Shown: one piece after another, positions 73-34,178 of the stretch
Layout: the number at the start of each line of letters is the position of its first letter
How positions within the stretch are numbered: position 1 is the stretch's first letter
Assembly (NCBI RefSeq): GCF_001186125.1
Contig: NW_014040138.1
Location: forward strand, 1 to 34,212
Reading direction: 5' to 3'
Length of the DNA: 34,212 nt
Origin: Sphaeroforma arctica JP610
Taxonomy: Eukaryota
Translations under genes and position numbers: made by a program
The notes under the pieces: model-generated
Databases searched by the model: none
What the model was told of the DNA's origin: nothing
What the model saw: only the letters and a program-made list of their open reading frames with translations

Positions 73-218
73 AACTAACTTTCTTGTGCGCGTGTCCGTG
101 TTCGTTCTTAGATATATATATAAATATAATTATGAGCGCTATTGTATCTGGTATATCATATACAATTTCCTATATCGTTTAGCCCACCACGCAACACCCC
201 GGGGCGTATTCCACTTAC

Positions 219-541
219 CGTCCCTCGGCGATGCGTTCTTTGTAGTCGTTAAACTCCAGTTCGAAAGGGTCTGGGTCTGGCGTGAGAATAGGGTATCTCT
301 CTATGATCACTCCGACTGATAATCTTCTTGGGGACACGGTTGAGATGTCAACGTTGGCTTTCTCATCTGACGCATCGGCACTTGAACTATGACGTACAGT
401 TGTACATCTGGCTAACTTTGTGTGCGTGTGTGTATTATGCAATTGGTATTGTTTCCAAGCTGTTAGTGTGTGTGCTTGTCGTGTACACGCTGATGTGTGG
501 GCTTGTCGCAGCAGTCGACCAGATACGTATGAGCTGAGCAT
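219..541 (-). CDS. MRPL46: Mitochondrial ribosomal protein mL46 (MRPL46/MRPL17 family), first coding exon; the rest lies off-window to the left
   Basis: ATG at 541 gives an Arg/Ser/Thr-rich presequence (MLSSYVSGRLLRQ...), then LSVGVIIERYPILTPDPDPFELEFNDYKERI, resembling the MRP-L46 N-terminal motif. The exon ends at a GTAAGT donor (218). Confidence 0.75.
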
Positions 542-1338
542 CGTGATCGAGGTTTGGGTGATATGAATATCGCCTGGTTCCCTACCCTTATATATTGGTA
601 AGAACACCTGTCTATTGAACAGATCAAGGTTGTTCTAGATATGTATGTGACCTTGACGCTCACTTTGTAGTTCCCTCGGTACCTCTCTCTCTAATATTAC
701 CGCCACCCCTTCTGGTGCGCTACTTATTCTAAAGTACCTATTTGAGCTGCTTTGTTTATCAATATATACCCCCAGCAGACTATTTACCACTAGCTCTCTA
801 GTAGCTTTATATACCCCGTGATTGCGCGTGGAATTTAATACACTACACACAACAAATGCAAACCCTCTACTGGGGTAGAGTGCATGAGATATTTGTAAAT
901 ACATACCGTAGTTGAGGCGGTAGCAGAGTTTGCAACAACAATAGAATAGTTTGCAACGCGTGTATTTTTATACATAAAAAAGCAAGAAGAATTGACGCGG
1001 CAAATTATCCGCGAAATTCAATGATACATTGCATAGAGAGAGCGTCTAATCAGTAATAGGCTATTAAAGAGGCTTTATTTATGTGCTTGAGCTTTAGATA
1101 TTTGATGTGATATTCCGCAACAAGTCAAGTTCGCCTATTAACATTGTCGTACAGATAGTTAACTAATAGATCATGTAGATACTTTCTCTGCATACTATTT
1201 AGCTTAGAAGAATACAAGACGTGAGGTGTTCTCGTGATCTCAGTATACTCCCCTCGTTCCTTATTCATTCACCTGAATTCAGCTTTTTGTTTCACATATT
1301 GAATAGCAATAGTGAACAGACTTTAGGAGAACCCCAAG

Positions 1339-1928: not shown

Positions 1929-3599
1929 AATGTATATATATATATATGGATATATATATTTATGTATGTATATATGTGTGTGGATATATATATATATATA
2001 TATAAATATATATATCCATATACACTAATATGCCTATAATATACATGTGTGCATTATAAATATGTATCCGTACAGATTTGACTTTTTATATATACTGAGA
2101 GATTTATCCGTGCGGTTTGGTACTAATTAAACATCTATTTCTAGATGCAGACAACTGTGCACACAAAATCTATACATAAAGCATGTGGACCAAATTCGTT
2201 TTTGCACGGTCATTGTGTGTACAACATCAAAATTACAATCTATGACACTATTTTGTGTGGAATTGGTTATGAAAATGACCTGTTGGGGTAGATACTTAGA
2301 TACAGACGCCCTTTTTTTTTTTCGGTGAATTTTTATGTTGTATCTGATAAGTTTATCAGTAGTATTTTCTCCTTGGTTGGGGACCCGTCATTAGTTTCCA
2401 TTTTCTGGAGAATGGGGCACGGGCTAACTCTATTCATCTGCATAGTGTGCAGAATTTCGAATGTGCCCGATCACAAACGACTGATATGTTTAAATTTTAG
2501 CTGCGAGTACTACTGGAGTACATAATGTCTACAATTGCGGACTGTGTTGCTGCACAATTCAATGATCTGCTTCATCCATATCATATGTATTGTCCGTGTT
2601 TTATATGTACCTAATATATGATACTGTGTCTCATCTCATGTTGTAGTCGTTTGCTATCATCTTTTTGCTGTTGACATGCATGAGAGCACTTACTTTCAAA
2701 TACACTTCACAAAGTGATGTTCTCAGGTTACACAATATAAATCTGTGCACACCCGTCGGCGTATGGAGAGCATGCGTTGTAGAAAAACAAGACCTCTAAT
2801 CCAATCATGTCTACGCATTATCACAGGCGTCAGATATGCCCATATACAACTCAACCGCAGTCTGGCACCTCGACACACCAAAACTAGCCGATCAGCTCAC
2901 CAATGCATCTGCGGGACACTTCTCCACACCTTACACGGCTGTTTATGTACACACTGAGTGGTGCCCGTATAGTATACGCAGCTTCCCTGTGATTAAGGAC
3001 CTGTCACGGGTTTTCCCACATATCCCAGTAGTGGCGATTGACGTGATGGAAGAGAATGCTAGGCGATGGGTTACCGTCGTGGGCGTACCCGCAATCCTTA
3101 TCTACGATGGTATGTGTTTGAGTCGTTCGTTTCTTTACTTGGGATCGTTTATACGTTACGCAATTATACGCTTGTGTGTGTTTTATCAGTATCAACCGTG
3201 TATGCTTATCGTAGCGGACGTTGTTACACTCAATGCCTCATCAGGGGAATCTTCTCGTGCTATGGAGTATTAATCAAGTGCATCCTATGGTTTCACGTGT
3301 ACGTATACAACCCTCAGGAATATTGACCTCGCTTTCTTCACATCGGTTCCACAGGCATTGAACTCAAAGCAAAATACTCTGGAACGCGTTCTCTACAAAG
3401 TCTGACAAAATTTGTACAGAAAAAGGTACATCACACACCACAAAATATCACCGAAACGCCCACGATACCTCCGCCAATGTACACACACAAACCGTCGCTC
3501 GAGGGCGTGGATCAGGGAGTGGGATGGGCTCTGTTTGTGATTGTAGCGATACTCGTTCTGCGATGGGTGGGTGATACACCCGAGACCACTATTGAGTGA
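1339..3599 (+). CDS. TXNDC15: TXNDC15/APRL-like thioredoxin-domain membrane protein; exons 1339-1449, 2827-3109, 3355-3599
   Basis: Exon 1 is signal-peptide-like ([16 protein letters not shown]; donor GTATGA). Exon 2 has a Trx fold with WCPYS and [10 protein letters not shown]. Exon 3 has [15 protein letters not shown] and a C-terminal hydrophobic helix ([12 protein letters not shown]), then TGA. Intron phases (0, 1) join in frame. Exon 1 assignment is less certain than exons 2-3. Confidence 0.75.
1598..2050. repeat. Compound microsatellite (TG)n/(TGTCTG)n/(TA)n in intron 1 of the TXNDC15-like gene
   Basis: Directly visible low-complexity runs. Confidence 0.95.
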
Positions 3600-14237: not shown

Positions 14238-14418
14238 AATGGACAATATAAACTCGATTGCTCAAGAAGTGTCTTTGTTATATTTTGGCATTGAATATAA
14301 ATAAGTATTTGTCTTTATCTCATCATGCTGTGTTCAGATATATAAGTTTAGTAAAAAACTACTTTGAAGCTAAGGAAAAACTATGTTTGTGATTCTAAAA
14401 CCTGGGCAGCGCCCAAAA
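14238..14418 (-). repeat. 3' LTR of the Copia element
   Basis: Diverged direct repeat of 28826-28993 (shared ...aggaaaaactatgtt(t)gtgattctaaaacctgggcagcgcccaaaa). It follows RNase H and a purine tract (AGGAAGG on minus). Confidence 0.75.
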
Positions 14419-14449
14419 ACCTTCCTGAATCGTGAACAGAGGTTCCTGG

Positions 14450-17160
14450 AGTCCGGAGAAGATTACGGAGGAGTTCGTACTTAGGACGAGACAAACTTTT
14501 GGTGAGTAAATCAGCTAAGTTGCCGTTGGTAGGAATGTAGGCAATGTCGATAATGTTTTTACCGACACAGTCCCTGATGTAGTGCGTGCGAATGTCTACG
14601 TGTTTGAGCCCTTTAGGGGTGCCAGTACCCTTGGCGACTTTGGTTGCACTTCGGTTATCGCAGTGAAGTTGAGTAGGTAGTTTCCGGTGGTATCCCATGG
14701 CATATAGAATGTTACGGATCCATGCAATATGTCGAACGCTTTCTGACGCGGTCACATATTCAGCTTCGGTAGAACCGATGGCGACAGTTTTCTGTTTGGC
14801 GCTCTTCCTGAGAGACCACAGGTCTCAGGCCAGATTTTACGAAACCATCTTTGATTTAAGGAAGTCAGCAGAGATAGCTCACTCCCGAGAGCTAAGTCAT
14901 CAGAGTTAGCTCACTCCCGAGAGCTAATCAAGTTGCTTAATTTACCCTCAAGAGTTGAGTTAATACTCAACCGACTTCCTAGAGCAGATTAAATTTCTCA
15001 ACCGATTCCCGAAAGTAGATTAAGTCTGTCAACCGCAATATTCTAAATATAGCTGCGGTTGTATGTAAGTCACAACCTATGCGAAAGACATCATGTGATC
15101 AGCGTGAGATTTAGTTGCAGGGAAGTTGAAATAGAATAGCGTCGAAGTGTTAAAGGTGTTCTGCATAAGGTTTCTCATGCTGACCATATGATATTTTACC
15201 CTGGCCAGCCCAAGCGGCTGAACACTAGCACAAACACCTTAGGTATAAAACCAAGGGTGAGGTCAGAAATAAATATATACATTTGCACTTTATTTAAAGT
15301 CTACTACATTGCACCCTAACACTTTCAGTAGATGGGAGCACCGTTAAAGCAGATGACGGTACCGGTCTGTGAGCGGCGATTAGCATAGTCACGGGCCCAA
15401 TCGGAGTCGGTAAAGCCCTGGAGGGCAGAGTCAATGGTCTGATTAGGAGCTCGACGACGGTATGTGATTTTAAAGTCTTTGGTGGCTTTAAGGTATTCTA
15501 GGATGCATTGTAGTGCGACAATGTGGCCCGTTGCTGGTTTAGTGGCAAAGGCAGCTAATTCATTGACCGTGGCAGCGATATCGATGCGTGTACGGTTGGC
15601 GGCGAAGCCAAAAGCTCCTAAAAGCTGTCAAGAATCTGTGCCAGTGTATGAGTCGGTTGTGGAGTCGGCAGGGTTGTGAGTGGTACCCGGTGTGTGTGTT
15701 TTGGTATTGTGCCATTGAGGTGAAATGTAGTGAGTACGTGTTCCACGTATGCCTGTTGATCTATCTCAATGCGATCAGGGTTTTGTCGGATTCGTAGACC
15801 TACAAGGTAACGCACACGGCCCATTTGAAAAAACAGCCAAGTTTCCTTGCACGAATTGCGGGGAACGGCGGGAGCAAGCTCATCAACATATAGGACTAGA
15901 AGAATGCGATGTTTGGAGTGGCACCAAATACTCTCGTCAGCGTCACTTTCTGTAAACCTAATTGATTGAAATCGTTTATTGATGTCGAGGTTACAAAGTC
16001 GGCCGGCTTGTTTCAAGCCTTAAAGGCCGCGCTTGAGTTTTAGTATTGTGTTAGGTGGACAAAACCCCAGTTCGACAGCACCAACGGGGGGGGGGGGGGG
16101 AGCGCATATAAAGCGGCGTATCAAGGTAAGAATTTAAGTATGCTGTGTCGACATCAAAGTGAAAGACGTCCAAGTCATAAAATGCAGCTTGTGCAAGAAA
16201 TGTCCGCAGCGTGGTTGAGGTGGCTGCTGGGGCATACGTGTCATGAAATGAGTCGCCCTCGACCTGTTGGCCGCTCCTAGCCACCATCCTAGCTTTATAA
16301 ATAGTAGGACTCTCGTGTTCATCGTGTTTTCGTGTAAGATCGTATTAGGAATGAATGATCTTGGTAACCGGTGGGACCTGTTCCGGTGTAACTATGTCCG
16401 CAAGATTGTTCTAAATGTGCGCCTTGTGTTCTGCTTGGATAGCCGAGAGCCATGACGATCATTCAGGTGTGCGTTGAGCTTGTTTAATACTTTTGGGTAA
16501 CGTATGATCAAGTGCGGCCGTGGCTTCGAGAAGGGTGTAGATAGTGGAAGCCGGGGACTGTAGTATGCGGATAGTAGGGTGGACAGATGAGTACGGAATA
16601 CCGGGTAGGACCAGGTTATCCGTCATAATTCGGTCGATGAGCAAAGTTGGGGGTGAGCCAATGCCGCACCAGACCACGGATGCACTCGGTATGTGCTGGC
16701 TGGCCGGGATCGGAAGTATCATAGGCGGAACCAACAAGCGCGATGACTCGGTTTGGACCGAAATTTGGAAGTAGTACTTCAACAGCATGATTAGCCGGGG
16801 TATGGGGAACATCTGCTAATTTGTCAGAGACGGGTGAGAGTACGGTGGTTGTTCTACATGCTGAAGAAATGATTCAATGTGTTTGTGGAGGTTCCAGATA
16901 CCGTGGAAGTCGTGGCGCGCCTGTTTTTTTGGTTGAGTAATTAATACACTGTGAAGTCCAAACTTAGTGCCGTCACAAATCATGTTCAACGTATACTTGT
17001 TGCCGTAGCGGTCAGCGGGCATAGGGCGCTGCAGGTCAGTGTCAATCTGCTTGACCGGCCCATAAATTGTGTCGGAGGTGTGATGAGGAACTGCCTTTCG
17101 TTTCAGCTTGCCCTCTATACAGACGCGCCAGTGTTTGGGAAATTCCGGGTTGTAAACTTC
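14450..17160 (-). pseudogene. Copia pol remnant: integrase N-part, reverse transcriptase, RNase H
   Basis: Integrase: CIEGKLKR...DTDLQRPM. RT: YKARMVAR..DTYAP..FDVDTAYLN, GLKQAGR, LYVDE. RNase H: GFTDSDWA, STEAEY, CDNRSA, KHVDIRTHYIR, NLADLLTKSL. Stops and frameshifts throughout. Confidence 0.95.
14809..15321 (+). mobile_element. Solo LTR (513 bp) of a different retroelement inserted in the Copia RNase H
   Basis: Starts TG, ends CA, flanked by a near-identical 5-bp TSD cttcc/ctttc. Contains TATAAAA (~15244) and AATAAA (~15268). Removing it restores GAPIYWKSAKQKTVA. Confidence 0.8.
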
Positions 17161-18160: not shown

Positions 18161-19750
18161 TCATTTCTTATTAAAAATACGAAGGAAGTCGCGAGATTCA
18201 CAAAACGCATCGGAGGTTAGCCAAGTTACTGTCCCATCCATAAAACAGGTCTTGTAGTAAGTGTTACCGTCTTCGGATGTTTTGTCAATTATATCTCTGA
18301 CTTGTGACTCCATAACTGGGACATCATAATCAAATGAGCGAGCGAATGAAAGTTCGGAGGTAAGGATACGGTGAGCGCCTAGATTAGTTGTGCTAGTACC
18401 ATCTATGTTATTCACTTCGTAGGTATCACTCTTCTCATCATGGTAGGAAATAACAAAAGGTCCAATTGTCTTAGAAAAGAGTTCGGTAACGTTGGCATTG
18501 TAAGTTTCAGTCTATCAAGGCGATATTAACGCCTTAGAGTAATTTAACGCTTAGGTTAAGTCTAAGTATAGTTAAATTCGAAATAAGTAACGAAATGAGT
18601 CTTTTAGTAAAGTTAGGTATGCCTCGTGAAAACAGCAATACTCTGAGCGATTGTGAGGCTGAGACATTGCCTATATATAATCCTCTCAGTACTGTTTTCG
18701 CCGAAGGGATTTTATTTAGTGTTTCGTTGTCGCTCTATTAGAAACTATGGAGTGTTTTGTTGGGGCGAATCCGAGAGACTCATAAAATCTTATCTTTAGA
18801 AACATTAAATAATAACTTGCCACTTATCAAGAACTACCGACTTAGCCTTTATCAGACTGGCACATCTGGTTGGCTGAACGGAGGTTAAACTAGGTAGCGC
18901 TAATAGTCCCTAGAAACCTATATTCGGTTGAGCCATCTCGCTACCGAAGTATTCAGATATAAATAGATTTGGAAGTTAACATAGTTCTATTAATAGAAAT
19001 AGTCCAAATCATATCTTTGGCATTTTTATCTGGCCCTTTAATGGCCTTATCCAAATATCTGATATGTAAAATAGAAAAGGTATTTAATCAATAAAAACCG
19101 TTAAAAAAAACCATTTTAGGAAACTTAAGTTCCTCGTACTATTAAGAGTACGTTTATAGTTTACGTACTGCTTAAGAGTATGTTTATAACATAGAGTCTA
19201 ATGTGGAGGCCCGGCTACTAAAGCATTGCGATTTATAATGTCAACATAATCGCCAACTTTGAACTAAACAATGTTTTTAGTGTTATTCCATCTGTCATAC
19301 GCTTTAAGTATTACGTGATTTTTGTGCTCGAGTAAACAGGGGTAAACAACGTTTTGTATATGCTCGAACTTTTGTAGCCACGGAGTAACGTATTTCTCGG
19401 GCGCAGTTTTGTCAAACTTTGCTTGCAATTCACTATAGCGGCCAAAGAAATAATGAAACGGTTTGAGGATTCATGCAGTTATTCATTTCAGTCTGAACCC
19501 ATTTCAAACGATAAGACCACATATCCTCAACGTCATCTAGTGCGGTACGCAATAGTTTCTTCAGTTCTCTATGACGAGTCTCATTTGCACCCTGCGTTTG
19601 AGGTTTAAAAGGAACATCACGCCTATGTGTCATGCCTGATACGAGTATAAGTGCCTCCATTACATCGGTACAAAACTCACTACCGTTATCAGAACACAGT
19701 AACGACTCTGTCACTGTTTGCAAATGTTTGTTCGGTATTGCATAAGGAGT
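18161..19750 (-). pseudogene. Gypsy/Ginger-type rve integrase remnant with a C-terminal chromodomain-like segment
   Basis: SDNGSEF...PFKPQTQGANE (integrase D..E core, 19433-19723); FKVGDYV (~19245-19265); VRDIIDKTSEDGNTYYKTCFMDGTVTWL (chromodomain-like, 18161-18310). Confidence 0.75.
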
Positions 19751-19849: not shown

Positions 19850-20960
19850 AGTATCAGGTGGGACTGGCAAAGGAATAGAGGTGTTGTCGGGTGGAGGAGG
19901 CGATTCTTCTTGACGTCCGAGTCAGTGAGGTCAGCGTCACTTGGCGGTGGAGAATTGCGTGTGGCAAGCGTTCAAAGCCAGTGATAAGTACTGCTATACC
20001 CTCCCTTTGTTCGCGTAATGAGAGTGATGAGTCTGTGTGATGAATGAGGCATATACGCATGTTGATGAAAAATTCAAAGCGGTGCCCACTGTCCTGAAGT
20101 CTATTTTGGGAAACAACTATTTGCTGTGAAAGGAAAGGGCTGAGATAGGTTAGCCCTAAGCCAGAAAGAACTCCCCGGGTGGTAACGTGGGTGAGCATTG
20201 AATCATTAGCGAGAAGAAGAGGGAAGGTATGTCCAGTTTCAACATCAAGTAGTAAATGTTTAGCTGTAGTGTGGAGATAATTTACCCTTACAGAGGAATT
20301 TAGGACTGGACCAGAGGACCAGGCCTACGGGAATATTTTAGGTCCAAACCAGAGGACCGGACCTAGGCGATTATTCGAGGTGAGGACCAGAGGACCGGAC
20401 CGATTAATGGATTAGAGAAATTAATGAGATAGAAGTGATGACTCAACTGAAACCATAGAGACGGGTATTTTCACACAACGCAATGGTAGAGAAAGTTTCG
20501 TTCTACTTAGGATCGTGATTAATAAATATAGCAGTAACACCATTCCTAATAGCACTTCTGACTGAGTTCACTTATTTCAGACTTAACATTCTTTATTAAG
20601 TTTTACCTGGTTTTGACCATACCCCGCCGTCAATAAGAAGGGGATACATGGTAAAGTCTATTCGACAACGAAGTCATGTATTATATAAAAGGGAACGGCG
20701 AACGAACGAGACGGAGGCCAAGATGGCGGCATTGGGATCTAAATACTGCCATGTCTCGATTTACTCACAATTGTGAAGTAGAGAAATGTTGGTATAGTCA
20801 TTGGTGACAAGAAATTGTCGGACTTGATCTTGAGGGCCTGGTCAAGGCCAGAAAGTAAATGTCTTGGATGAATGCCGATGACAGGGAATTATCTTGGCTG
20901 GTAGCAATACGTTTTAACGTAGTACAGCGATTTTTCCATACGCAGCGCGTGTTTTCATCG
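19850..20960 (-). pseudogene. Copia gag C-part / protease / pre-integrase remnant
   Basis: WKNRCTTLKRIATSQDNSLSSAFIQDIYFLAL continues in frame from the gag piece at 28351. LLIDGG (~20640) and ILHRQV (~19950) are weak protease and pre-integrase motifs. Confidence 0.5.
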
Positions 20961-21110
20961 CAAAATACTCTTTATTTAGTGGCATATTTACCATTTTTTC
21001 ATGCCAAATGTAAAAATGCCTTCTTTTCATACCAAACTGATTTTTGCCTTTATTTCATGCCAAATGTAAAATCGCCTTTTTTTCATGTCAGATGTATAAT
21101 ACCTTTTTTT
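20961..21110 (+). repeat. Left terminal inverted repeat: four 28-bp units (core TTTCATGCCAAATG)
   Basis: Cores start at 20997, 21025, 21053 and 21081. Confidence 0.85.
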
Positions 21111-22668
21111 AGTTTGTGTACACATTTTGCAATTAAGGCTGTGGTTTTGCAATTTTGTGTCCGTTTGAACCGTCCTTGCTCGGGCACCAGGAATCTGCCT
21201 CACACCACATATAGCTCCTTCAGTACCAACAGGTAAGAGTCTACCGTTCGAGTCACGACGCAAGAGACAACGTGAGCCCTATCCGGTACCAACAGGCATG
21301 ACTCGAACGGTATAACCGTTCGAGTCACTGGACCAGAGACAATATGGCCTCTATTTAGTACCAACAGGTAAGAGTCTACCGTTCGAGTCACGACGCAAGA
21401 GACAACGTGAGCCCTATCCGGTACCAACAGGCATGACTCGAACGGTTATACCGTTCGAGTCACTGGACCAGAGACAATATGGCCTCTATTAGTAAGTACT
21501 TGTGTGTGCCCTAGTGCGTGCCTGTGTGGTAGTATTGGTGTGGGGGTAGTACACACACCCAAGGGTCACCGGATACGTGTCCGCTTCAAACGGACACAGA
21601 CGGCGGTTTTTGCAATTAAGGCTATGGTTTTGCAATTTTGTGTCCGCTTGAGCCGGACACAAATTGTGTCGTGCCCCTAGTAGTATTTGTGCGTGCCCCT
21701 AGTAGTATTTGTGCGCGCCCTAGTAGTATTTGTGCGTGCCCCTAGTAGTATTTGTGCGCGCCCTAGTAGTATTTGTGCGTGCCCCTAGTAGTATTTGTGC
21801 GCGCCCTAGGGGGTCGTCGCACCGTATACACTATACGGTCGCACCGTATACACTATACGGTCGCACCGTATACCCGGCGGTGCTGGGGACCTTCGACGAG
21901 AGTGTGCGCTTGAACCGGACACAAGGCGATGGTTTTTGCAATTAAGGCTGTGGTTTTGCAATTTTGTGTCCGCTTGAGCCGGACACAAGGCGATGGTTTT
22001 TGCAATTTTGTCGTCAGAAGCACGATAACCTGGTGATTTGACTGTGGCTTGCTCGGGTACCATCAATACCGACAGGTAAGTGTCTACCGTTCAAGTCACT
22101 GGACCAGAGACAATATGGCCTCTATTAGTAAGTACTTGTGCGTGCCCTAGTGCGTGCCTGTGCGGTAGTATTGGTGTGAGGGTAGTACACACACCCAAGG
22201 GTCACCGGTGATAGAACGCGCACAAAGGCGAGCTTGCTATCGTACGGTAGGCTCAATGGTACTTGCCAGTGCCTATGGTAGAACGCGAGCAAAGGCGAGC
22301 TTGCTATCGCGAACTCAATGGTACGTGCCAGTGCCTATGGTAGAACGCGAGCAAAGGCGAGCTTGCTGTCGCGAAATCTACGGTAGGCTCAATGGTACGT
22401 GCCAGTGCCTATGGTAGAACGCGAGCAAAGGCGAGCTTGCTGTCGCGAAATCTACGGTAGGCTCAATGGTACGTGCCAGTGCCTATGGTAGAACGCGAGC
22501 AAAGGCGAGCTTGCTGTCGCGAAATCTACGGTAGGCTCAATGGTACGTGCCAGTGCCTATCGTAGAACGCGAGCAAAGGCGAGCTTGCTATCGCGAACTC
22601 AATGGTACGTGCCAGTGCCTATGGTAGAACGCGAGCAAAGGCGAGCTTGCTGTCGCGAAATCTACGGT
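21110..22668. repeat. Composite array of hairpin-containing direct repeats
   Basis: 135-bp unit x2 (21222, 21357); alternating 22/21-bp units (21671-21809); 22-bp unit x2.5 (21816-21873); gtgtccg..cggacac hairpin units; 74/62-bp units x~6.5 (22210-22668). Block 21450-21572 recurs at 22085-22207. Confidence 0.95.
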
Positions 22669-23039
22669 AACAGTGGTCGGTTGGGGATTCACGGCGTCCA
22701 CAATCACCGGGGCCTTGCTGGGGGTGAGATCAATGGTTGGAGGTACCACGGGTGCTTCCGACGCCAGCTGGCCCGTGACGGGGTTGGGGTTGCAAGAAGA
22801 CTGCGACGGTTGCGGGTAATCTCAACCTGGAGGGATCACAGTACGACGGCATCATTCTGGATCTCTAGTCGAAAAGATGAAATTATTTCTTTTAAAAAAA
22901 CCCCGCGTAAATATTTCCATATACATATCCAGATACCCAGACACACACATAAAATATATATCCACATACACAGACACATACACATATAAAATATACACGC
23001 ATATAGTACATCCACCCACAAGTATATACGTATAAAATA

Positions 23040-23112
23040 TTCGTATACCCCGTTGCTGGTTTTTCCGATGCGCTTGGACAGACCAAAGTCGATCACATAG
23101 TACTTGGTTAGG
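23040..23112 (-). pseudogene. Captured protein-kinase fragment (subdomain VII)
   Basis: LTKYYVIDFGLSKRIGK, followed on minus by GTATAC and a TG/TA-rich intron-like tract (22915-23045). Confidence 0.55.
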
Positions 23113-23351
23113 TCCACAAAGTTGAACAGTAGGTTGTCCCGATATCCAATTGGTCGAGGCTCGAAACCGGCATTGGTTGAAAGTACACGTGATTTCGCTT
23201 ACTCTGTGTGAACAAATTAATAGGTGTCAAGAATAAACCAATTCTCTGGTGTTCACGAATTATAGCTGATTCATGAATGTATGAGAATGATGTGACGCAT
23301 ACCCGAAATTGGTATTTAAGGCATTCCAAACTTTCAAATTGAATTCACAAT

Positions 23352-24302
23352 ATGATGCCTAATGATCAACATGACGCCATTGGCCGGTTCGCAGTTATTG
23401 ACGCCGTGGTTGACTTTATTCTGGACTACGACGACTCGCCGATCAGTGTCGAGGCCGTACTGTGCATGGAACGTATCGTTCGCCACGAACCCGAGGCCGA
23501 GTGTCTCGTGCGGTTGATTCATCACAAGTTGCGCACGCTGCAGCGCAAATACGTGGGTGGTCCGACACGCACCATCAACGGCCCATCGGGCATCGACGGA
23601 CACTCGCTGTCGTGCGTACAGGGATCGGCCGCCGATCCACTGGCGGTGCTAGCATTACCCGACTGTACCGTGGAAATTGCCGACTGCAGTATTTGCCTCG
23701 AACAAGACGGCCACGGAAACGTTGTATCCAGTCTGCCCTGTGGACACGACTTCCACCGCACGTGTATTCGCCGCTGGTTGCAGTCCAGCACCCAGTGTCC
23801 CGAGTGCCGTGCCGAGTTGCCAGACACTGTAGGTGCAGCCGACAACGTGCCGGTGTTGAGTCTGGAGAATACCTGGACCTCCAATCAGGTTTTGGAAAAC
23901 CGAGTCTCACGATGGAACGTTGTGTCCTTGAAGCAAAAGAAAACCACCGGCTCGACCGGACTTGCACCGACCGTTTGGTTTATGGACTGCGACGGCGACA
24001 TGGTCAAGCGCGTCAAAAATCGACGCGGCAAGAAGAAGCTCGTGCGTGTGCCTTTCGACGAGTGGGTAAACGACCACGAACTGGCGGCAATAACCGTGCG
24101 TGTGTTTGACGACACCGACCGTTTCCCCTGCGTCTCGAAGGGACAGTTTGACAAGTCGTATGATGACGTCGCCACTCCGATGCGTGTGTTGACACTTTTT
24201 GTCCGCGACGGTATTGTGTACAAGCAGACCGCGAACGTGACTGTTTCTGCACACGCTTTCAGTGACACCTTGTTTTTCTCGATTTTCTCGAAAATATTGT
24301 GA
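23352..24302 (+). CDS. Intronless RING-H2 (C3H2C3) putative E3 ubiquitin ligase with an unknown C-terminal domain
   Basis: CSIC-x15-CGHDFHRTC-x10-CPEC in a 316-aa open frame, visibly GC-richer than the flanks. The last ~12 codons run into the adjacent repeat block. Confidence 0.9.
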   Translation: MMPNDQHDAIGRFAVIDAVVDFILDYDDSPISVEAVLCMERIVRHEPEAECLVRLIHHKLRTLQRKYVGGPTRTINGPSGIDGHSLSCVQGSAADPLAVLALPDCTVEIADCSICLEQDGHGNVVSSLPCGHDFHRTCIRRWLQSSTQCPECRAELPDTVGAADNVPVLSLENTWTSNQVLENRVSRWNVVSLKQKKTTGSTGLAPTVWFMDCDGDMVKRVKNRRGKKKLVRVPFDEWVNDHELAAITVRVFDDTDRFPCVSKGQFDKSYDDVATPMRVLTLFVRDGIVYKQTANVTVSAHAFSDTLFFSIFSKIL

Positions 24303-24782
24303 ATGGTGTTGCGAAAAAAAACTTGCACAGAATCGTCCGCTGGTGTTCCGTGCACGAAAATTATTGTCATCGATGTTGCGTACCGTGCACGAAACTTTTT
24401 TTCCCCGATTTTCTTGAAAAAAATGTGAACGGTGTTGCGACGCAACTTGCACAGAATCGTGTGCTGATGTACCGTGCACGAAACTTTTTTCCCGATTTTC
24501 TTGCACGAAACTTTTTTGTGCGGCGCGTGGCGTTGAGTTCATCACTCGAGGCTGAATGATGAACTGTGGAAAAACAAAACCTGGTTGGTACTCCCATGTT
24601 CGCGCTCGCAAATAAAACCATTCACCGATTTAGTTTTTATGCGTATAAGAGCGGCGACGCAACTTGTACGGAATCGTGTACTGATGTACCGCGCACGAAA
24701 CTTTTTTTTCCGAATTTCTTGAAAAAACGGTGTTGCGACACAACTTGTACGGAATCGTGTGTTGATGTACCGCGCACGAAAC
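24270..24782. repeat. Degenerate direct repeats (gtgttgcgacgcaacttgcacagaatcgtgtgctgatgtaccgtgcacgaaactttttt) between two convergent genes
   Basis: Copies near 24305, 24372 (partial), 24431, 24655 and 24729. Confidence 0.9.
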
Positions 24783-25794
24783 TGACCTTCGTCCGGTCCC
24801 GCCGCATCTGCGCCTTTAGCTCTGCGCTCAGCTTGACGGTTGCAAACCCCTTGTTGCCAGACACCACCTTGTGCGACCCGGCGATGCACGAAAAGTACTG
24901 AGCCGTCGAGTCCAGGTTCCACCAGCCCCCAAACACGAGATCGTCGGCCCCGGCCAGCTTGGCCTCGTCCCGGTGCCACGCCTCCGCCGAGGCCGATTCG
25001 CCCTTCTGTCGCACCATCATGCGGTCGACCACCTGCTCAAAGTACATTGGCCCACCTTGTGTTCCAGCCAGGGGCGCCAGGAGGGGTCTGATGATCGCGT
25101 GCGCCCACACCCTAAGTAGGCGCACAGTGGGGTTGTGGAACGACGCGGGGTTCCCGAGCGCCCCAAAGCCACCCAGTACATACTTGCTGGCGTCGGCGTT
25201 GAACTCGGGGAAGTTGGCAATCTCCGCGTCAAAGTATGCCCTCGCCTGCGCCACGTCCAGGTCCGTCGGCACCACGGCGTACCCGTGCTTTTCGAGGTGC
25301 TCAAGCACTGTCAAATGATCACCACCACTCCTTCCAGGCCGTGGCTGCGGTGGTAGCGGACGGGGCTCGGGGACCCTGGCAACAACGGCAACCTCCTCGG
25401 GTGGTCTTGGGCCGGCTTTGGAGTCAATGTACGCTTGCACCATCGACTCGGCAACCACAGAGTCGTCAATGTTGACCCAGATCACACACCCCTGCTTGTG
25501 CTGGTACGGGAGCGCTCGCTGTAGCCGCACGGGCGACTCCAGGACCCACGCATACGGCGTCTTGTACCCACTGTGCAGGGCCTGCGACCCGTGGCGGTCC
25601 GAGTGGCTTGCAAACACCTCGTTGTCCAGCTTGATACAGTCTACCAACTTGGCAAACCCGACCACCTTTTGTCACCCAGACTCTACTAGGCCCACAAAGC
25701 CACGGTGTGTCGCTGGCGAACCGCGGATCCCCCAGGTCTTGTTGCCGCCAAGTATAAGGTCCAGCGGCGTCTTCTTGATTATGATTCCCTTCAT
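24637..25794 (-). pseudogene. ASCH domain fused to a PhyH-like 2OG-Fe(II) dioxygenase; in-frame stop and 3' truncation
   Basis: ATG 25794: MKGIIIKKTPLDLILGGNKTWGIRG...ESG*QKVVGFAKLVDC...YAWVLESPVRL..PYQHKQGCVIWVNI (ASCH; TGA at 25674-25672). A Pro-rich linker follows, then GYAVV...WHRD...WWNLD...GSHK (PhyH-like). The frame enters the repeat at ~24782. Confidence 0.8.
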
Positions 25795-25872
25795 TCTTCC
25801 GTGTGTCTTGAATATCTTGAATCTCTAAACTTGTGACTTGTAAAGTTACGATAACACTACTACTTATACTCG

Positions 25873-25901
25873 ATTTACAAATCCAATTTGGATTTGCAAA
25901 T
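25873..25901. promoter_or_regulatory. 29-bp near-perfect palindrome in a divergent intergenic region
   Basis: atttacaaatccaa-t-ttggatttgcaaat (13 of 14 arm positions complementary). Confidence 0.45.
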
Positions 25902-26036
25902 GGACGACCAATCGATCAATCGTGTCCTATGAGCCTTTAGGGTGTAGGGTTTGCTTGAAGGGCCCGCAGCCTGCTCAAGTTCAAAGCACATCGCACCATA
26001 GGGCCACCCCACTAGGCTTCGTCGCCCCCCAAGACC

Positions 26037-26570
26037 GTGATGGTCGGCAGCTGCGCGATCAAGGCCGAGGGGATTCCAGTATCCTCCGGCTCGCTGGTCT
26101 CCCGTCTACTGGATGGTGATGTAGCTGCTCGCGCGGACATGCTTGGCGTGATCCGAGCCGCAAAGGCCGAGGGGATTCCAATATCCTCCTGCTCGCTGGT
26201 CTCCCGGCTACTGGATGGTAGTAGTGAGACGAGGGTGAAAATTTTACGTAGTATCAAGCTGATGATGGATCACAAAATAAGTTGTTCCTACAACACGGTC
26301 GTCAAGTATGTTGTTGGACCCAACTATCGCTCGAGAGTTGAATCGATAGTCGGTCTACGAAACGCCGGTGTTCCTATAACGAACTCTACCGTCTACCGCG
26401 CACTCGTCTTGGGATATTATAATATCGTGGTTGATATTTGGACCAGAATGAAAACTGAAAGTGTACCACATAAGAAGCGCAAAGCGACAGGAAATATGCG
26501 TGTGGACGAGGTGATTAAAAGAGCGCGCGTACAATCGGAAGAAGGCCGCACATTTGACTCCTCTAGATAA
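26037..26570 (+). CDS. Hypothetical protein with tandem HTH-like repeats and a basic C-terminal NLS-like patch
   Basis: KAEGIP(V/I)SS.SLVSRLLDG twice, 34 aa apart; related ISCSYNTVVKYV and LRNAGVPITNSTVYRAL; HKKRK. Confidence 0.55.
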   Translation: MMVGSCAIKAEGIPVSSGSLVSRLLDGDVAARADMLGVIRAAKAEGIPISSCSLVSRLLDGSSETRVKILRSIKLMMDHKISCSYNTVVKYVVGPNYRSRVESIVGLRNAGVPITNSTVYRALVLGYYNIVVDIWTRMKTESVPHKKRKATGNMRVDEVIKRARVQSEEGRTFDSSR

Positions 26571-27210
26571 AATTTCCAATTTCTAAATAAATTGTCCTTT
26601 ACCAGTGCTCCTCCTGCATTCATAATCAGAAACACCGCCTCTACATGTACATTGTAAACCATCGCCTCTTGGACAGTTTAGACTCGGCGGTCGGAACCCG
26701 TAGTTGCGGACGGGGGTGTATAGGTTGACCAGCGCGACCGTGTCTGGTAGCGACTTTGGATGGTCCTTTCCATTGTCTCCGAGACCCAGCACCCCGACAC
26801 TGGGGAAGCCACTACTTCCATGTGCATAGCTGTGTACATTGTTGCCATGGGGTGGAAAATGTCACGAAGAACGTGTCCACAAGTTCTTCATAGGTCAGAT
26901 CCGACACACGGGAAATGTAATTCTTTTTACATATATATATATGTACACACACATACACATACACACACACACCGATTTTGACGTGCTGCGACTCATGACG
27001 ATTGGTGCGGATCTGAAGATGTGTGTGCAGGTGACGAATACTGAATGAAATTAAAATACTTAATTAAAAAGATAAAAGAATAACTTTTTGAATACGGACT
27101 TAAGGGGATCAACTACTACAAAAAAAGGTCGATAAAAAATTTAAGAAATATATATATTTTTTTATACCATTCGTTTCGTTCCACAAAACTTAAAAAAAAA
27201 CATTGCTACA

Positions 27211-27762
27211 ATGAGCGGCATCCTAAGAGACAACGTGTTTTACCTCAAAGACCGCCACGGCCAATACTGTGACCTGGGGGTCCTATTTGAGACCCTGGAG
27301 GTGCAGGACACACACATTGTAATCACGCTGCCAAACAAGACAAACTTTAAGCTTATGCGCAAGCCAGACACACCCGAAAGCCATTTGCCCATTAATACCA
27401 AGAAGGGTCGGGTGAACCGCATGTACGTGGAGCGTCAGGTGTTGTGTGTGCTGTACGACTGTGGAACCAAGGGCTACGTGCCATCGATTTCTCTGTGCGG
27501 CAACACATCCACAAAGCCCCCCTGTACACCCAAGCACACACTGATGCCGAAACTTTTGAAGCGTCCCGAGTACATGCAGCGCCGGCCAAAAAAGTACGGC
27601 AACTGCACACAGGCACAACCGGTCACACCGACCTGTACCACAAAACCCGCGGTTGTGGTACTACGTGGGGGTTGGAGGGATCCGATTGTTCTTGAGCCTG
27701 TTGCTGCCTGCGTAGCCGCCGGCGTTCGTCGGACTGTGCCTTCGATCGACTGTAGGGTCTAG
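27211..27762 (+). CDS. Intronless hypothetical protein (183 aa)
   Basis: ATG immediately after a very AT-rich promoter-like tract (27050-27210); open frame of complex composition; no family recognised. Confidence 0.55.
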   Translation: MSGILRDNVFYLKDRHGQYCDLGVLFETLEVQDTHIVITLPNKTNFKLMRKPDTPESHLPINTKKGRVNRMYVERQVLCVLYDCGTKGYVPSISLCGNTSTKPPCTPKHTLMPKLLKRPEYMQRRPKKYGNCTQAQPVTPTCTTKPAVVVLRGGWRDPIVLEPVAACVAAGVRRTVPSIDCRV

Positions 27763-27869
27763 TGCGGTCGAAACCGTATCCTCTGTGGTTTGAGGGATCC
27801 GATTGTTGTTGAGTCTGCTGTCGTTTGGATGTGGATGTACGGGGGGAGTCGTAGTGCTGCTCCTGCTTG

Positions 27870-28212
27870 GACCCTGTGTTGACCGGCGGTAATATCTCAA
27901 ATGACTTTCGTGGAGTATTGGACTTGAATGGTTGTGGGTAATGTCGTGCGTATCAAACTGGGCCGACACACCCTTGGACCAATCCAGAGTGGCCAGCGGG
28001 TTGGTCGCGGCACGCAGCCGTCTGGGACCGCCCGCACCCACCGCCCTGTACTGCAACCGTGACCCCCCCGCTGCTCGGGCGGACCTGGACCGTTCCAGAC
28101 ACGTAGCCGCGGCACACTTGGGCTTGGCTTTGGGCTGTTCCACTTCACATCAAGCGCCTGACCCTCCAGGTCATCATACACCAGCTCCGGGGCCACGGCC
28201 TGCACATCTTCC
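27870..28212 (-). pseudogene. Possible remnant of a transposase N-terminal WRKY/FAR1-like domain
   Basis: TCLERSR...VGAGGPRRLRA...DTHDITHNH reading inward from the right end; GGP is one substitution from GCP. Confidence 0.3.
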
Positions 28213-28342
28213 AAAATATGAAAAAAAGGTATTTTACATTTGGCATGAAATAAAGGCATTTTTCGATTTGGCATGAAATGAAGGCAAAAAGGCGTTTGGA
28301 CACAAACAATGGGGTTTTTTATACCAAAATGAAGGTACTTCC
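28210..28342 (-). repeat. Right terminal inverted repeat: four ~28-bp units (CATTTGGCATGAAA on plus)
   Basis: Cores end at 28223, 28250, 28278 and 28306. The outermost core begins at position 37 from the end, as on the left. Confidence 0.85.
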
Positions 28343-28780
28343 TTTTCATCGTCTTGGATATTAAGCTAAATTGATAGGCATCACAATAGTAGCGGACATC
28401 GTAGGACCTGAAGTAGTGTCCATGGGTCGGACAGAAATTATTTCATCGGGATCAAGTGAATTTCGCAGTTCATCAGATAAAGAGTCAAAGAGGTGTATCT
28501 AACGAGCACAACGGGCATACGTACTATCTTCAGTGGTCGTTGCACGGAATTGGGCTGTACGGAAGTGAACATGAGCGGGTAGGTACACAATCGGGGTTTG
28601 TCCAGTTGGGGTCTGTGGTTGACCCTCTCAGATAAATTCGAAAACTGGTAACTTATTCTGTTTAGCGGTGGAGGTGGCAACACGGAGGTCGGCTAGCCAG
28701 TCATCGTGGTTATCACCGCTGAGGGACAGAAGTGTCCAGCGACTACGGAGCACTGTGGTCGGGGCAGCGTCGTCGTTCAT
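28343..28780 (-). pseudogene. Copia gag N-terminal remnant
   Basis: MNDDAAPTTVLRSRWTLLSLSGDNHDDWLADLR (LxGxNxxxW gag motif)...IHLFDSLSDELRNSL; internal stops. Confidence 0.65.

Positions 28781-29707: not shown

Positions 29708-34178
<4,471 letters not shown>

What the first reader, a model, noticed from the sequence alone, without database searches (positions are those of the whole stretch)
24637..25794. ASCH + PhyH-like 2OG-Fe(II) dioxygenase fusion, longer than the ORF track shows
Seen: the frame extends 43 codons upstream of the listed ORF to ATG 25794 through one TGA, completing an ASCH domain. It is joined by a Pro-rich linker to a dioxygenase with WHRD (HxD) and GSHK. The ASCH GxKxxExR motif reads GNKTWGIR (E to G), and the region expected to hold the distal His is replaced by repeats, so this copy looks dead. 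Known: ASCH is a PUA-like nucleic-acid-binding fold, and fungal KDZ transposons carry TET/JBP dioxygenases. Inference: the ancestral protein may be a reader-plus-oxidase of modified bases serving a mobile element or virus, for example in anti-silencing.
Basis: partly seen in the sequence, partly recalled or inferred. Interest (0 to 1): 0.78.

Follow-up and report, generated by a model that had tools for sequence, protein, structure and literature searches.

The report
Virus-type ASCH–dioxygenase fusion, broken transposon copy
This is a broken copy, carried inside a small transposon, of a gene that joins a likely RNA de-acetylating domain to an unstudied oxygenase typical of giant viruses; an intact sister copy exists in the same protist and would likely strip chemical marks from RNA building blocks.

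Summary
The frame runs from ATG 25794 through one TGA, carries an ASCH domain with E22G, and loses the last 140 dioxygenase residues at 24784. It is Sphaeroforma arctica SARC_06081, whose annotation hides the stop in a 21-nt 'intron'. An intact paralogue, SARC_00068 (477 aa), keeps GNKTWEIR, the distal His and the 2OG Arg, so the fusion is real. Differences between copies are mostly synonymous in both domains. The oxygenase half belongs to a large uncharacterised giant-virus family (1083 clusters). Its fold is PhyH-type, with no TET/JBP profile match, and the host lacks 5mC, so DNA anti-silencing is unlikely. The ASCH half is closest to TthASCH, a shown ac4C deacetylase. Family members fuse repeatedly with Xth, NADAR, macrodomain and AlkB domains, and PHYHD1-type enzymes demethylate nucleosides. 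Best reading (about 0.45): a two-headed eraser of RNA or nucleoside modifications. The fusion was found in no other organism. This copy lies in a 7.4-kb non-autonomous element with inverted ends and a 9-bp target duplication (Pack-MULE-like). New variant of known kinds; substrate untested.

The parts
24637..25794 (-). Pseudogene copy of the ASCH + PhyH-like dioxygenase fusion (annotated as SARC_06081)
25465..25794 (-). ASCH domain, GKER/TRIP4-like type (codons 1-110); K19, R24, Y77 kept, E22 replaced by G, pocket aromatic replaced by P10
25729..25731 (-). Codon 22, Gly instead of the catalytic Glu
25672..25674 (-). In-frame TGA (codon 41)
25666..25686 (-). 21-nt GT..AG stretch that the public gene model skips as an intron; likely a prediction artefact that hides the stop
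   Evidence: P0001 lacks exactly these 7 codons; the paralogue reads through them
25321..25464 (-). Helix plus Pro-rich linker (codons 111-158)
   Evidence: pLDDT under 50 at 129-156 of the paralogue
24784..25320 (-). N-terminal 179 codons of the giant-virus-type PhyH-like 2OG-Fe(II) dioxygenase, with GGFGALGNPASFHNP and WHRD (His at 24975-24973)
24637..24783 (-). Repeat-derived tail that replaces the last 140 residues (distal His, 2OG Arg and C-terminal subdomain lost)
25821..26029 (-). Upstream region shared with other loci that continue into different sequence; contains a 17-nt palindrome at 25879-25895; likely a promoter module
   Evidence: loose ends at 25821, 25826, 25926 and 26029, and raised contig depth; sequence
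20961..28342 (.). 7382-bp non-autonomous element with terminal inverted repeats (GC 0.51 against 0.41-0.43 in the flanks); no transposase found
20952..20960 (+). Left copy of the 9-bp target-site duplication
28343..28351 (+). Right copy of the 9-bp target-site duplication
20961..21110 (+). Left terminal inverted repeat, built of 28-bp units
   Evidence: other contigs join different flanks at 20963
28221..28342 (-). Right terminal inverted repeat, 28-bp units (67% complementary to the left over 122 nt)
23352..24302 (+). Cargo ORF, 316 aa, RING finger
   Evidence: Pfam PF13639 E 1.8e-12
26037..26570 (+). Cargo ORF, 177 aa, no family found
27211..27762 (+). Cargo ORF, 183 aa, no family found

Best explanation
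The window holds a dead, transposon-borne copy of an ASCH-dioxygenase fusion gene whose intact paralogue (SARC_00068) likely encodes a two-headed eraser of RNA modifications: the ASCH head would remove N4-acetyl groups from cytidine, and the giant-virus-type PhyH-like head would oxidatively remove methyl groups from ribonucleosides or nucleotides. Shown: the broken copy, the intact paralogue, both folds, the catalytic residues in the paralogue, the giant-virus range of the oxygenase family, and the element with inverted ends and a target duplication. Inferred: (1) the oxygenase gene entered the Sphaeroforma lineage from a giant virus and was joined to a phage/bacterial-type ASCH gene, either in that virus or in the element family; (2) the fusion was under purifying selection before this copy decayed; (3) the ASCH K19/E22 dyad hydrolyses ac4C, more likely in RNA than as free nucleoside, because the pocket aromatic is lost; (4) the oxygenase uses Fe(II), 2OG and O2 (H273, D275, H352, R365) to hydroxylate and release a methyl group, and its seven near-invariant arginines would suit a phosphate-bearing substrate; (5) the likely use is turnover and salvage of host RNA, originally for viral nucleotide supply.
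For: The intact paralogue is 477 aa with 11 differences over the shared 337 residues. Of the differences listed (the 40 best-supported rows; 51 were not shown), 21 fall in the gene; 11 are synonymous, and 10 of 14 within the two domains (expected fraction 0.24, p 0.0002, no correction for transition bias). The closest solved sequence relative of the ASCH head is TthASCH, shown to deacetylate ac4C, with K23 and E26 essential on tRNA (10.64898/2026.02.27.708502, section 22); the paralogue keeps the matching K19, E22, R24, Y77. In the oxygenase, H273/D275/H352/R365 are kept in 125 of 128 aligned relatives; the model has pLDDT over 90 and a PhyH-type fold, including PHYHD1 (Z 13.4, rmsd 3.8, 214 aligned) and a Fadolivirus PhyH (E 1.2e-8, 14% identity). 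PHYHD1 and a Fadolivirus PhyH-family enzyme demethylate 2'-O-methyl nucleosides (PMC12709175, abstract and section 29; whether that is the same Fadolivirus protein was not checked). Family members in separate parts of the tree are fused to Xth+NADAR (P0275), Xth (P0276, same clade), a macrodomain (P0053, PDB E 1e-5), an AlkB-type domain (L128), NADAR (P0178, weak) and NUDIX (P0087, weak). Viral range: 66 IMG/VR loci, 24 of them named GVMAG; neighbours include major capsid protein, A32 ATPase and VLTF3; only 6 MAG contigs among 185,579 prokaryote genomes and none in 50,697 phage records.
Against: No substrate was tested. The fusion was found only in S. arctica: none among 263 fetched proteins, a region search over 262-835 aa, 7 longer hits, 152 oxygenase loci or 43 ASCH loci. 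The best fold matches are YbiU/GIG2 and amino-acid, aminoglycoside and secondary-metabolite hydroxylases, which score as high as or higher than PHYHD1, all at 10-17% identity. The TthASCH Y14 position is aromatic in 32 of 32 relatives but Pro in both S. arctica copies, and Y14A abolishes activity on the free nucleoside; PHYHD1, conversely, acts only on free nucleosides, so the two analogies point to different substrate forms. Only 66 of 418 family members have extensions of 100 aa or more, in 41 groups, and most partners are unrelated or unknown (chromo, MYND, Ulp1, haspin kinase, phosphatases). Repair or salvage genes are not conserved neighbours: AlkB-like hits in 6 and NADAR hits in 2 of 152 loci, one of them the L128 fusion itself. 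The placement of the S. arctica sequence in the tree is poorly resolved and changed between two trees, so no donor is identified.
Confidence: 0.45

Rival explanations
1. The oxygenase is a small-molecule hydroxylase unrelated to nucleic acids, and the ASCH join is an incidental chimera made by gene capture in a Pack-MULE-like element, with no shared pathway.
For: The top fold matches are YbiU/GIG2, MysH, ColD, proline hydroxylase, SnoK and ectoine hydroxylase. The fusion occurs in one genome only. The ASCH pocket aromatic is lost. Non-autonomous MULEs carry captured fragments (PMC6446971, passages). Family fusion partners are heterogeneous.
Against: There is a synonymous excess in both domains between copies, though only p 0.06 for ASCH alone. 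The K/E/R motif and the metal triad are intact in the paralogue. Fusions to nucleic-acid repair and de-modification domains recur.
Confidence: 0.3
2. The oxygenase is a protein (histone or translation-factor) hydroxylase or demethylase, and ASCH tethers it to RNA or chromatin.
For: Fusions to chromo (L065/L066), MYND (L005), haspin kinase (P0188), Ulp1 (L076) and a weak SET (P0229, E 0.26). Prolyl hydroxylases match at Z 11-12. JmjC genes are enriched in endogenous giant viruses of the related Amoebidium (PMC11244446, passages).
Against: Protein hydroxylases rank below PhyH-type small-substrate enzymes; no JmjC or P4H profile match.
Confidence: 0.12
3. One reading: a reader-plus-oxidase of modified DNA bases that protects the element or virus from silencing, like TET/JBP in KDZ transposons.
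For: ASCH domains are linked to DNA-modification systems (PMC4738411, passages). A viral TET is implicated in keeping an endogenous giant virus unmethylated (10.64898/2026.10.09.758095, passages). The gene lies in a transposon, and TthASCH binds ssDNA.
Against: No TET/JBP or AlkB profile match. AlkB-family structures score Z 9.4 or less against 13-16 for PhyH types. S. arctica lacks 5mC, and its 6mA goes with transcribed genes, not silencing (10.64898/2026.05.21.726589, passages). No KDZ transposase in the element.
Confidence: 0.1

Closest known systems
TthASCH / TTHA0113 (PDB 1WK2, 2DP9) and the GKER (TRIP4/EOLA1-like) ASCH deacetylases
   Same: Fold and the K-x-x-E-x-R motif plus the Y81-equivalent in the intact paralogue.
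   Different: Fused to an oxygenase; Y14-equivalent is Pro; the window copy has E22G and a stop. Nearest sequence relatives are phage/prophage and unnamed metagenome proteins at about 40-48% identity.
PHYHD1 / FJS / Fadolivirus PhyH 2'-O-methyl nucleoside demethylases (PF05721)
   Same: PhyH-type double-stranded beta-helix with an HxD...H triad.
   Different: Only 10-14% identity; its own motifs (GGFxAxGNPxSFH; a roughly 100-residue C-terminal subdomain); no sequence hit to any PDB entry; substrate residues not mapped.
YbiU / GIG2 (DUF1479) oxygenases
   Same: Best structural match, Z 16.0 (rmsd 3.8, 254 aligned) and 15.3.
   Different: 10-11% identity and tied within about 1 Z unit with several other PhyH-type enzymes; gives no substrate.
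Uncharacterised giant-virus proteins (Marseillevirus LCMAC101 A0A481YSB5, Tetraselmis virus 1 A0A2P0VN02)
   Same: Best viral fold hits, E 5e-32 and 2e-18; an Atlas cluster of hypothetical Nucleocytoviricota proteins scores 0.97.
   Different: No function known. The N-terminal part of the 480-aa LCMAC101 protein could not be read, so an ASCH domain there is not excluded.
Pack-MULEs (non-autonomous Mutator-like elements with cargo)
   Same: Long inverted ends, 9-bp target duplication, no transposase, several cargo ORFs (definition from PMC6446971).
   Different: The cargo includes a gene of a giant-virus family rather than evident host fragments; the ends are imperfect; the mobilising transposase is not identified.
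TET/JBP dioxygenases of KDZ transposons and punuivirus
   Same: A 2OG-Fe(II) oxygenase on a mobile element.
   Different: Different branch of the superfamily by profile and best fold; the host lacks 5mC; no KDZ transposase.

Membership tests
ASCH, GKER/TRIP4-like | ASCH beta-barrel fold | tested here: met
   (TM 0.94)
ASCH, GKER/TRIP4-like | Catalytic Lys and Glu of GxKxxExR, intact paralogue | tested here: met
   K19, E22, R24 in P0121
ASCH, GKER/TRIP4-like | Catalytic Glu, window copy | tested here: not met
   G22 and a stop at codon 41
ASCH, GKER/TRIP4-like | Pocket aromatic at the TthASCH Y14 position | tested here: not met
   Pro10 in both copies; W/Y/H in 32 of 32 relatives
ASCH, GKER/TRIP4-like | ac4C deacetylase activity | not testable with these tools
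   needs an assay
2OG-Fe(II) dioxygenase superfamily | Double-stranded beta-helix fold | tested here: met
2OG-Fe(II) dioxygenase superfamily | HxD...H triad and 2OG Arg, intact paralogue and family | tested here: met
   H273, D275, H352, R365; 125 of 128 relatives
2OG-Fe(II) dioxygenase superfamily | Distal His and 2OG Arg, window copy | tested here: not met
   frame departs after residue 337
PhyH (PF05721) | Pfam gathering score of 22 bits | tested here: inconclusive
   P0121 scores 21.2; relatives reach up to 36.5; many have no match
PHYHD1-type 2'-O-methyl nucleoside demethylase | Ribose- and base-binding residues K102, H105, Q139, F161, W277 | not tested
   no residue-level alignment obtainable; the paper's alignment figure was not readable as text
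TET/JBP | Match to a TET/JBP sequence profile | tested here: not met
   the Pfam scan of P0121 gave PhyH only at E 0.01
TET/JBP | Closest fold among solved structures | tested here: inconclusive
   PhyH-type entries fill the top ranks; unlisted families are not excluded
AlkB (PF13532) | Profile match and closest fold | tested here: not met
   no PF13532 match; ALKBH/AlkB Z 8.6-9.4 against 13-16
MULE / Pack-MULE | 8-11 bp target-site duplication | tested here: met
   9 bp, exactly on the inverted-repeat register; a looser test hit in 7 of 3000 random draws
MULE / Pack-MULE | Long terminal inverted repeats | tested here: met
   about 120 nt, 67% complementary
MULE / Pack-MULE | Cargo captured from host genes | tested here: inconclusive
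   one giant-virus-family gene, one RING ORF and two ORFs without relatives
MULE / Pack-MULE | A MULE transposase in the genome with matching ends | not testable with these tools
   no whole genome held
KDZ transposon | KDZ transposase in the element | tested here: not met
   84 stop-to-stop frames of 50 aa or more: only RING passed a curated cut-off
Giant endogenous viral element | Giant-virus core genes in the insert | tested here: not met
   none in the 7.4 kb element or among the 23 window proteins scanned

The most novel reading that the evidence does not exclude
The oxygenase family (1083 clusters at 50% identity, essentially confined to giant viruses and a few protists) is an unrecognised class of PhyH-fold enzymes that remove modifications from RNA or DNA itself. 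Viruses bundle it with Xth, NADAR, macrodomain, AlkB and ASCH erasers, and in Sphaeroforma a family of Mutator-like elements shuttles such virus-derived genes around the host genome behind a shared promoter module.
Probability: 0.22. Interest if true: 0.78.

Novelty: new variant of a known kind. Interest (0 to 1): 0.52.

Why it matters
The dead copy matters little in itself, but it points to three things. First, there is an intact natural fusion that can be expressed and assayed as it stands. Second, it gives a functional clue, by domain fusion, to a widespread giant-virus oxygenase family with no known substrate. If right, this would extend nucleoside or RNA de-modification to a new viral enzyme class and pair two recently described chemistries (ASCH deacetylation, PhyH-type demethylation) in one chain. 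Third, it is a case of a virus-family gene carried as cargo by a cut-and-paste element in a close relative of animals, a route by which viral genes could persist after the viral insert is gone. It also flags a mis-annotated gene model (SARC_06081).

Tried and rejected
No whole genome was held, so the surroundings of SARC_00068 and other element copies could not be read. Pfam, PHROGs and NCBIfam give no confident name for the window protein or its paralogue. A profile of the oxygenase family finds no solved structure by sequence, nor does the most PhyH-like member. No TET or JBP structure was listed in the rows shown (30 to 50 per search), which does not exclude them. The full-length model left ASCH unfolded (pLDDT under 50) because the alignment held few ASCH rows, so ASCH was folded alone. 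No RNA holder was listed for the gene; this says nothing on expression. Contig depth over the gene is 2-5 times that of adjacent contigs, which fits a few copies but is not a copy number. TGA recoding was rejected: the paralogue and the collapsed contigs have a sense codon there, and the copy has other lesions. The annotated 21-nt intron was rejected as unlikely: it removes residues conserved in ASCH relatives. An assembly artefact at the truncation was rejected. The three other cargo ORFs have no close relatives in viral contigs. A kinase-like DFG stretch near 23050-23120 was seen by eye but had no Pfam or PDB support. A conserved gene neighbourhood for the oxygenase was looked for (150 + 22 neighbours scanned of 259 candidates) and not found. 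Literature searches for this fusion or family listed no paper describing either; the library lacks most subscription journals. Three look-ups of earlier findings returned nothing. No complex prediction was run.

Full report
Observation. The minus-strand frame from 25794 to 24637 has 385 codons and one internal TGA at codon 41; ATG 25794 is 43 codons upstream of the GTG listed by the ORF finder. Read with X at the stop, residues 3-110 match T. thermophilus TTHA0113 at E 3e-9. A model of this part matches EOLA1, ZmASCH, TthASCH and TRIP4 at Z 10-11, ahead of YqfB at 8.8. The rest matches an unnamed protein family with the motifs GGFxAxGNPxSFH and WHRD. After residue 337 the frame enters a local repeat and ends 48 residues later.

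Identity and intact copy. The best database hit is S. arctica SARC_06081 (378 aa), which is this frame minus seven codons around the stop, skipped as a 21-nt GT..AG intron. Its 90% cluster holds a second protein, SARC_00068 (477 aa), with GNKTWEIR, a sense codon at 41, and a full C-terminus with H352 and R365. Contigs from public runs agree. One contig bridges the truncation without differences in runs X6 and X14; others leave the window at 24785 and continue as the intact gene in X10 and X3; the X3 contig keeps the TGA and G22, while collapsed contigs of the other five runs have the sense codon. Among the 21 listed differences in the gene, 11 are synonymous, and 10 of 14 within the two domains (p 0.0002 against a fraction of 0.24; the linker has 1 of 7). 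These come from collapsed contigs and a truncated table, so the figure is indicative only. The fusion is a real gene, and the window copy is its decayed duplicate.

The oxygenase family. The domain has 1083 relatives among 50%-identity representatives. A family alignment found 66 loci in IMG/VR, 24 named as giant-virus MAGs and forming 32 clusters at 75%, and 376 in metagenomes. It found only 6 MAG contigs in GTDB, which I infer are mis-binned because they resemble the viral loci, and none in phage records. Neighbours include major capsid protein, A32 ATPase, VLTF3 and YqaJ. Named eukaryote members are few (Hondaea, Gefionella, Isochrysis, one MMETSP sample). The metal triad and 2OG Arg are kept in 125 of 128 relatives, with seven near-invariant arginines. 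The model (pLDDT over 90) matches YbiU (Z 16.0), GIG2 (15.3), MysH, ColD, proline hydroxylase, ectoine hydroxylase and PHYHD1 (13.4), with AlkB-type enzymes at 9.4 or less; the best viral matches are uncharacterised Marseillevirus LCMAC101 and Tetraselmis virus proteins. Two FastTree trees place S. arctica among metagenomic members, but its sister group changed between them, so no donor is claimed. Giant-virus core genes were reported in small islands of S. arctica (PMC5294986, passages), whereas a ViralRecall screen found no reliable hit there (PMC11244446, passages).

Is the fusion elsewhere? It was not found in 263 fetched proteins, an ASCH-region search over 262-835 aa (29 candidates only, so weak), 7 hits of 836-2385 aa (P0277 has ASCH but no oxygenase), 152 oxygenase loci totalling 1.38 Mb or 43 ASCH loci. 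ASCH relatives are mostly phage or prophage stand-alone proteins; 1 of the 43 loci is a giant-virus MAG.

Function. TthASCH deacetylates ac4C; K23 and E26 are essential on tRNA, and Y14, R28 and Y81 also matter on the free nucleoside (10.64898/2026.02.27.708502: abstract, passages, section 22). EOLA1 deacetylates free ac4C for salvage, though murine EOLA1 was inactive in another study (10.64898/2026.08.01.741249: passages and the first part of section 41). By the alignment, SARC_00068 keeps K19, E22, R24 and Y77 but has Pro at the Y14 position, aromatic in 32 of 32 relatives. PHYHD1 and related PF05721 enzymes, one from Fadolivirus, demethylate free 2'-O-methyl nucleosides but not nucleotides or RNA (PMC12709175: abstract, passages, section 29; its alignment figure could not be read and may bear on the pocket comparison). 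Other members of the present family are fused to Xth+NADAR, Xth, a macrodomain, AlkB, and weakly NADAR and NUDIX, in separate parts of the tree, but also to chromo, MYND, Ulp1, haspin kinase and phosphatase domains; 66 of 418 members have long extensions. I commit to a double eraser of RNA-derived modifications at about 0.45. A non-nucleoside hydroxylase with an incidental ASCH join follows at 0.3, a protein hydroxylase at 0.12, and DNA anti-silencing at 0.1. The last is weakened because S. arctica lacks 5mC (PMC11244446 and PMC12344493, passages) and its 6mA marks transcribed genes (10.64898/2026.05.21.726589, passages), although a viral TET precedent exists (10.64898/2026.10.09.758095, passages) and ASCH domains are linked to DNA-modification systems (PMC4738411, passages). 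A survey of oxygen-dependent enzymes in giant viruses lists PhyH only in the Phycodnaviridae cloud and gives no viral substrate in the passages seen (PMC10598087).

The carrier. Inverted arrays of a 28-bp unit lie at 20991-21110 and 28221-28319 and nowhere else in the window. On their register, a 9-bp direct repeat flanks 20961 and 28342 exactly; a looser version of the test hit in 7 of 3000 random draws. Five to six contigs per run join other flanks at 20963 in two runs, so the end is repeated in the genome. The 7382-bp insert is GC-richer than its flanks and carries a RING ORF, two unknown ORFs and this gene, with no transposase in 84 frames scanned. This fits a non-autonomous Mutator-like element (8-11 bp duplications, long ends; PMC6446971, passages), but the superfamily is not proven without the transposase. 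The region upstream of the gene is shared with loci that continue differently, which suggests a reusable promoter module.

Verdict. This is a real, accurately described pseudogene that leads to an intact and apparently unique fusion and to an uncharacterised giant-virus oxygenase family. It is a new variant of known kinds, interest 0.52. No description of the fusion or family appeared in six literature searches.

Noticed in passing
window 29708-33693 (+): Host Argonaute gene in exons: Gly/Arg-rich start, ArgoN, ArgoL1 and PAZ matches, about 1.4 kb beyond the element.
   Followed up: no
window 14381-16016 (-): Decayed Ty1/copia retrotransposon; RVT_2 E 9.5e-9. An integrase-like fragment at 19433-19723 is by eye only.
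   Followed up: no
window 20280-20620: Very high-copy repeat (summed contig depth 50-100 times the neighbours) with 38-nt tandem units, just left of the element.
   Followed up: no
window 21219-22669: Nested tandem arrays inside the element: 135-nt, 22/43-nt and 62/74-nt units, with a 29-nt palindrome present twice.
   Followed up: no
window 24622-24655: A 34-nt stretch holding the pseudogene's new stop also occurs in other contigs with different flanks on both sides: a shared gene-end module.
   Followed up: partly
window 23050-23120 (-): Short stretch with a DFG motif resembling a protein kinase (recalled, by eye); no Pfam or PDB support.
   Followed up: yes
P0275, P0276: Family oxygenase fused to exonuclease III, with a NADAR domain in P0275: a candidate multi-function repair protein.
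   Followed up: partly
L065:5665-8124, L066:5665-8118: Oxygenase fused to a chromodomain and a C-terminal part that by eye resembles helix-hairpin-helix glycosylases (recalled; no Pfam or PDB support).
   Followed up: partly
P0130 (Hondaea fermentalgiana) and L076:5986-13182: Two tandem copies of the oxygenase domain; in P0130 the first lacks the HxD motif.
   Followed up: no
L006:3843-4151 and related loci: A histone H3-like ORF (by eye) near the oxygenase in 9 related viral and metagenome loci.
   Followed up: no
window 215-607 (-) and 2836-3273 (+): Host exons of mitochondrial ribosomal protein L46 and a thioredoxin-like protein.
   Followed up: no
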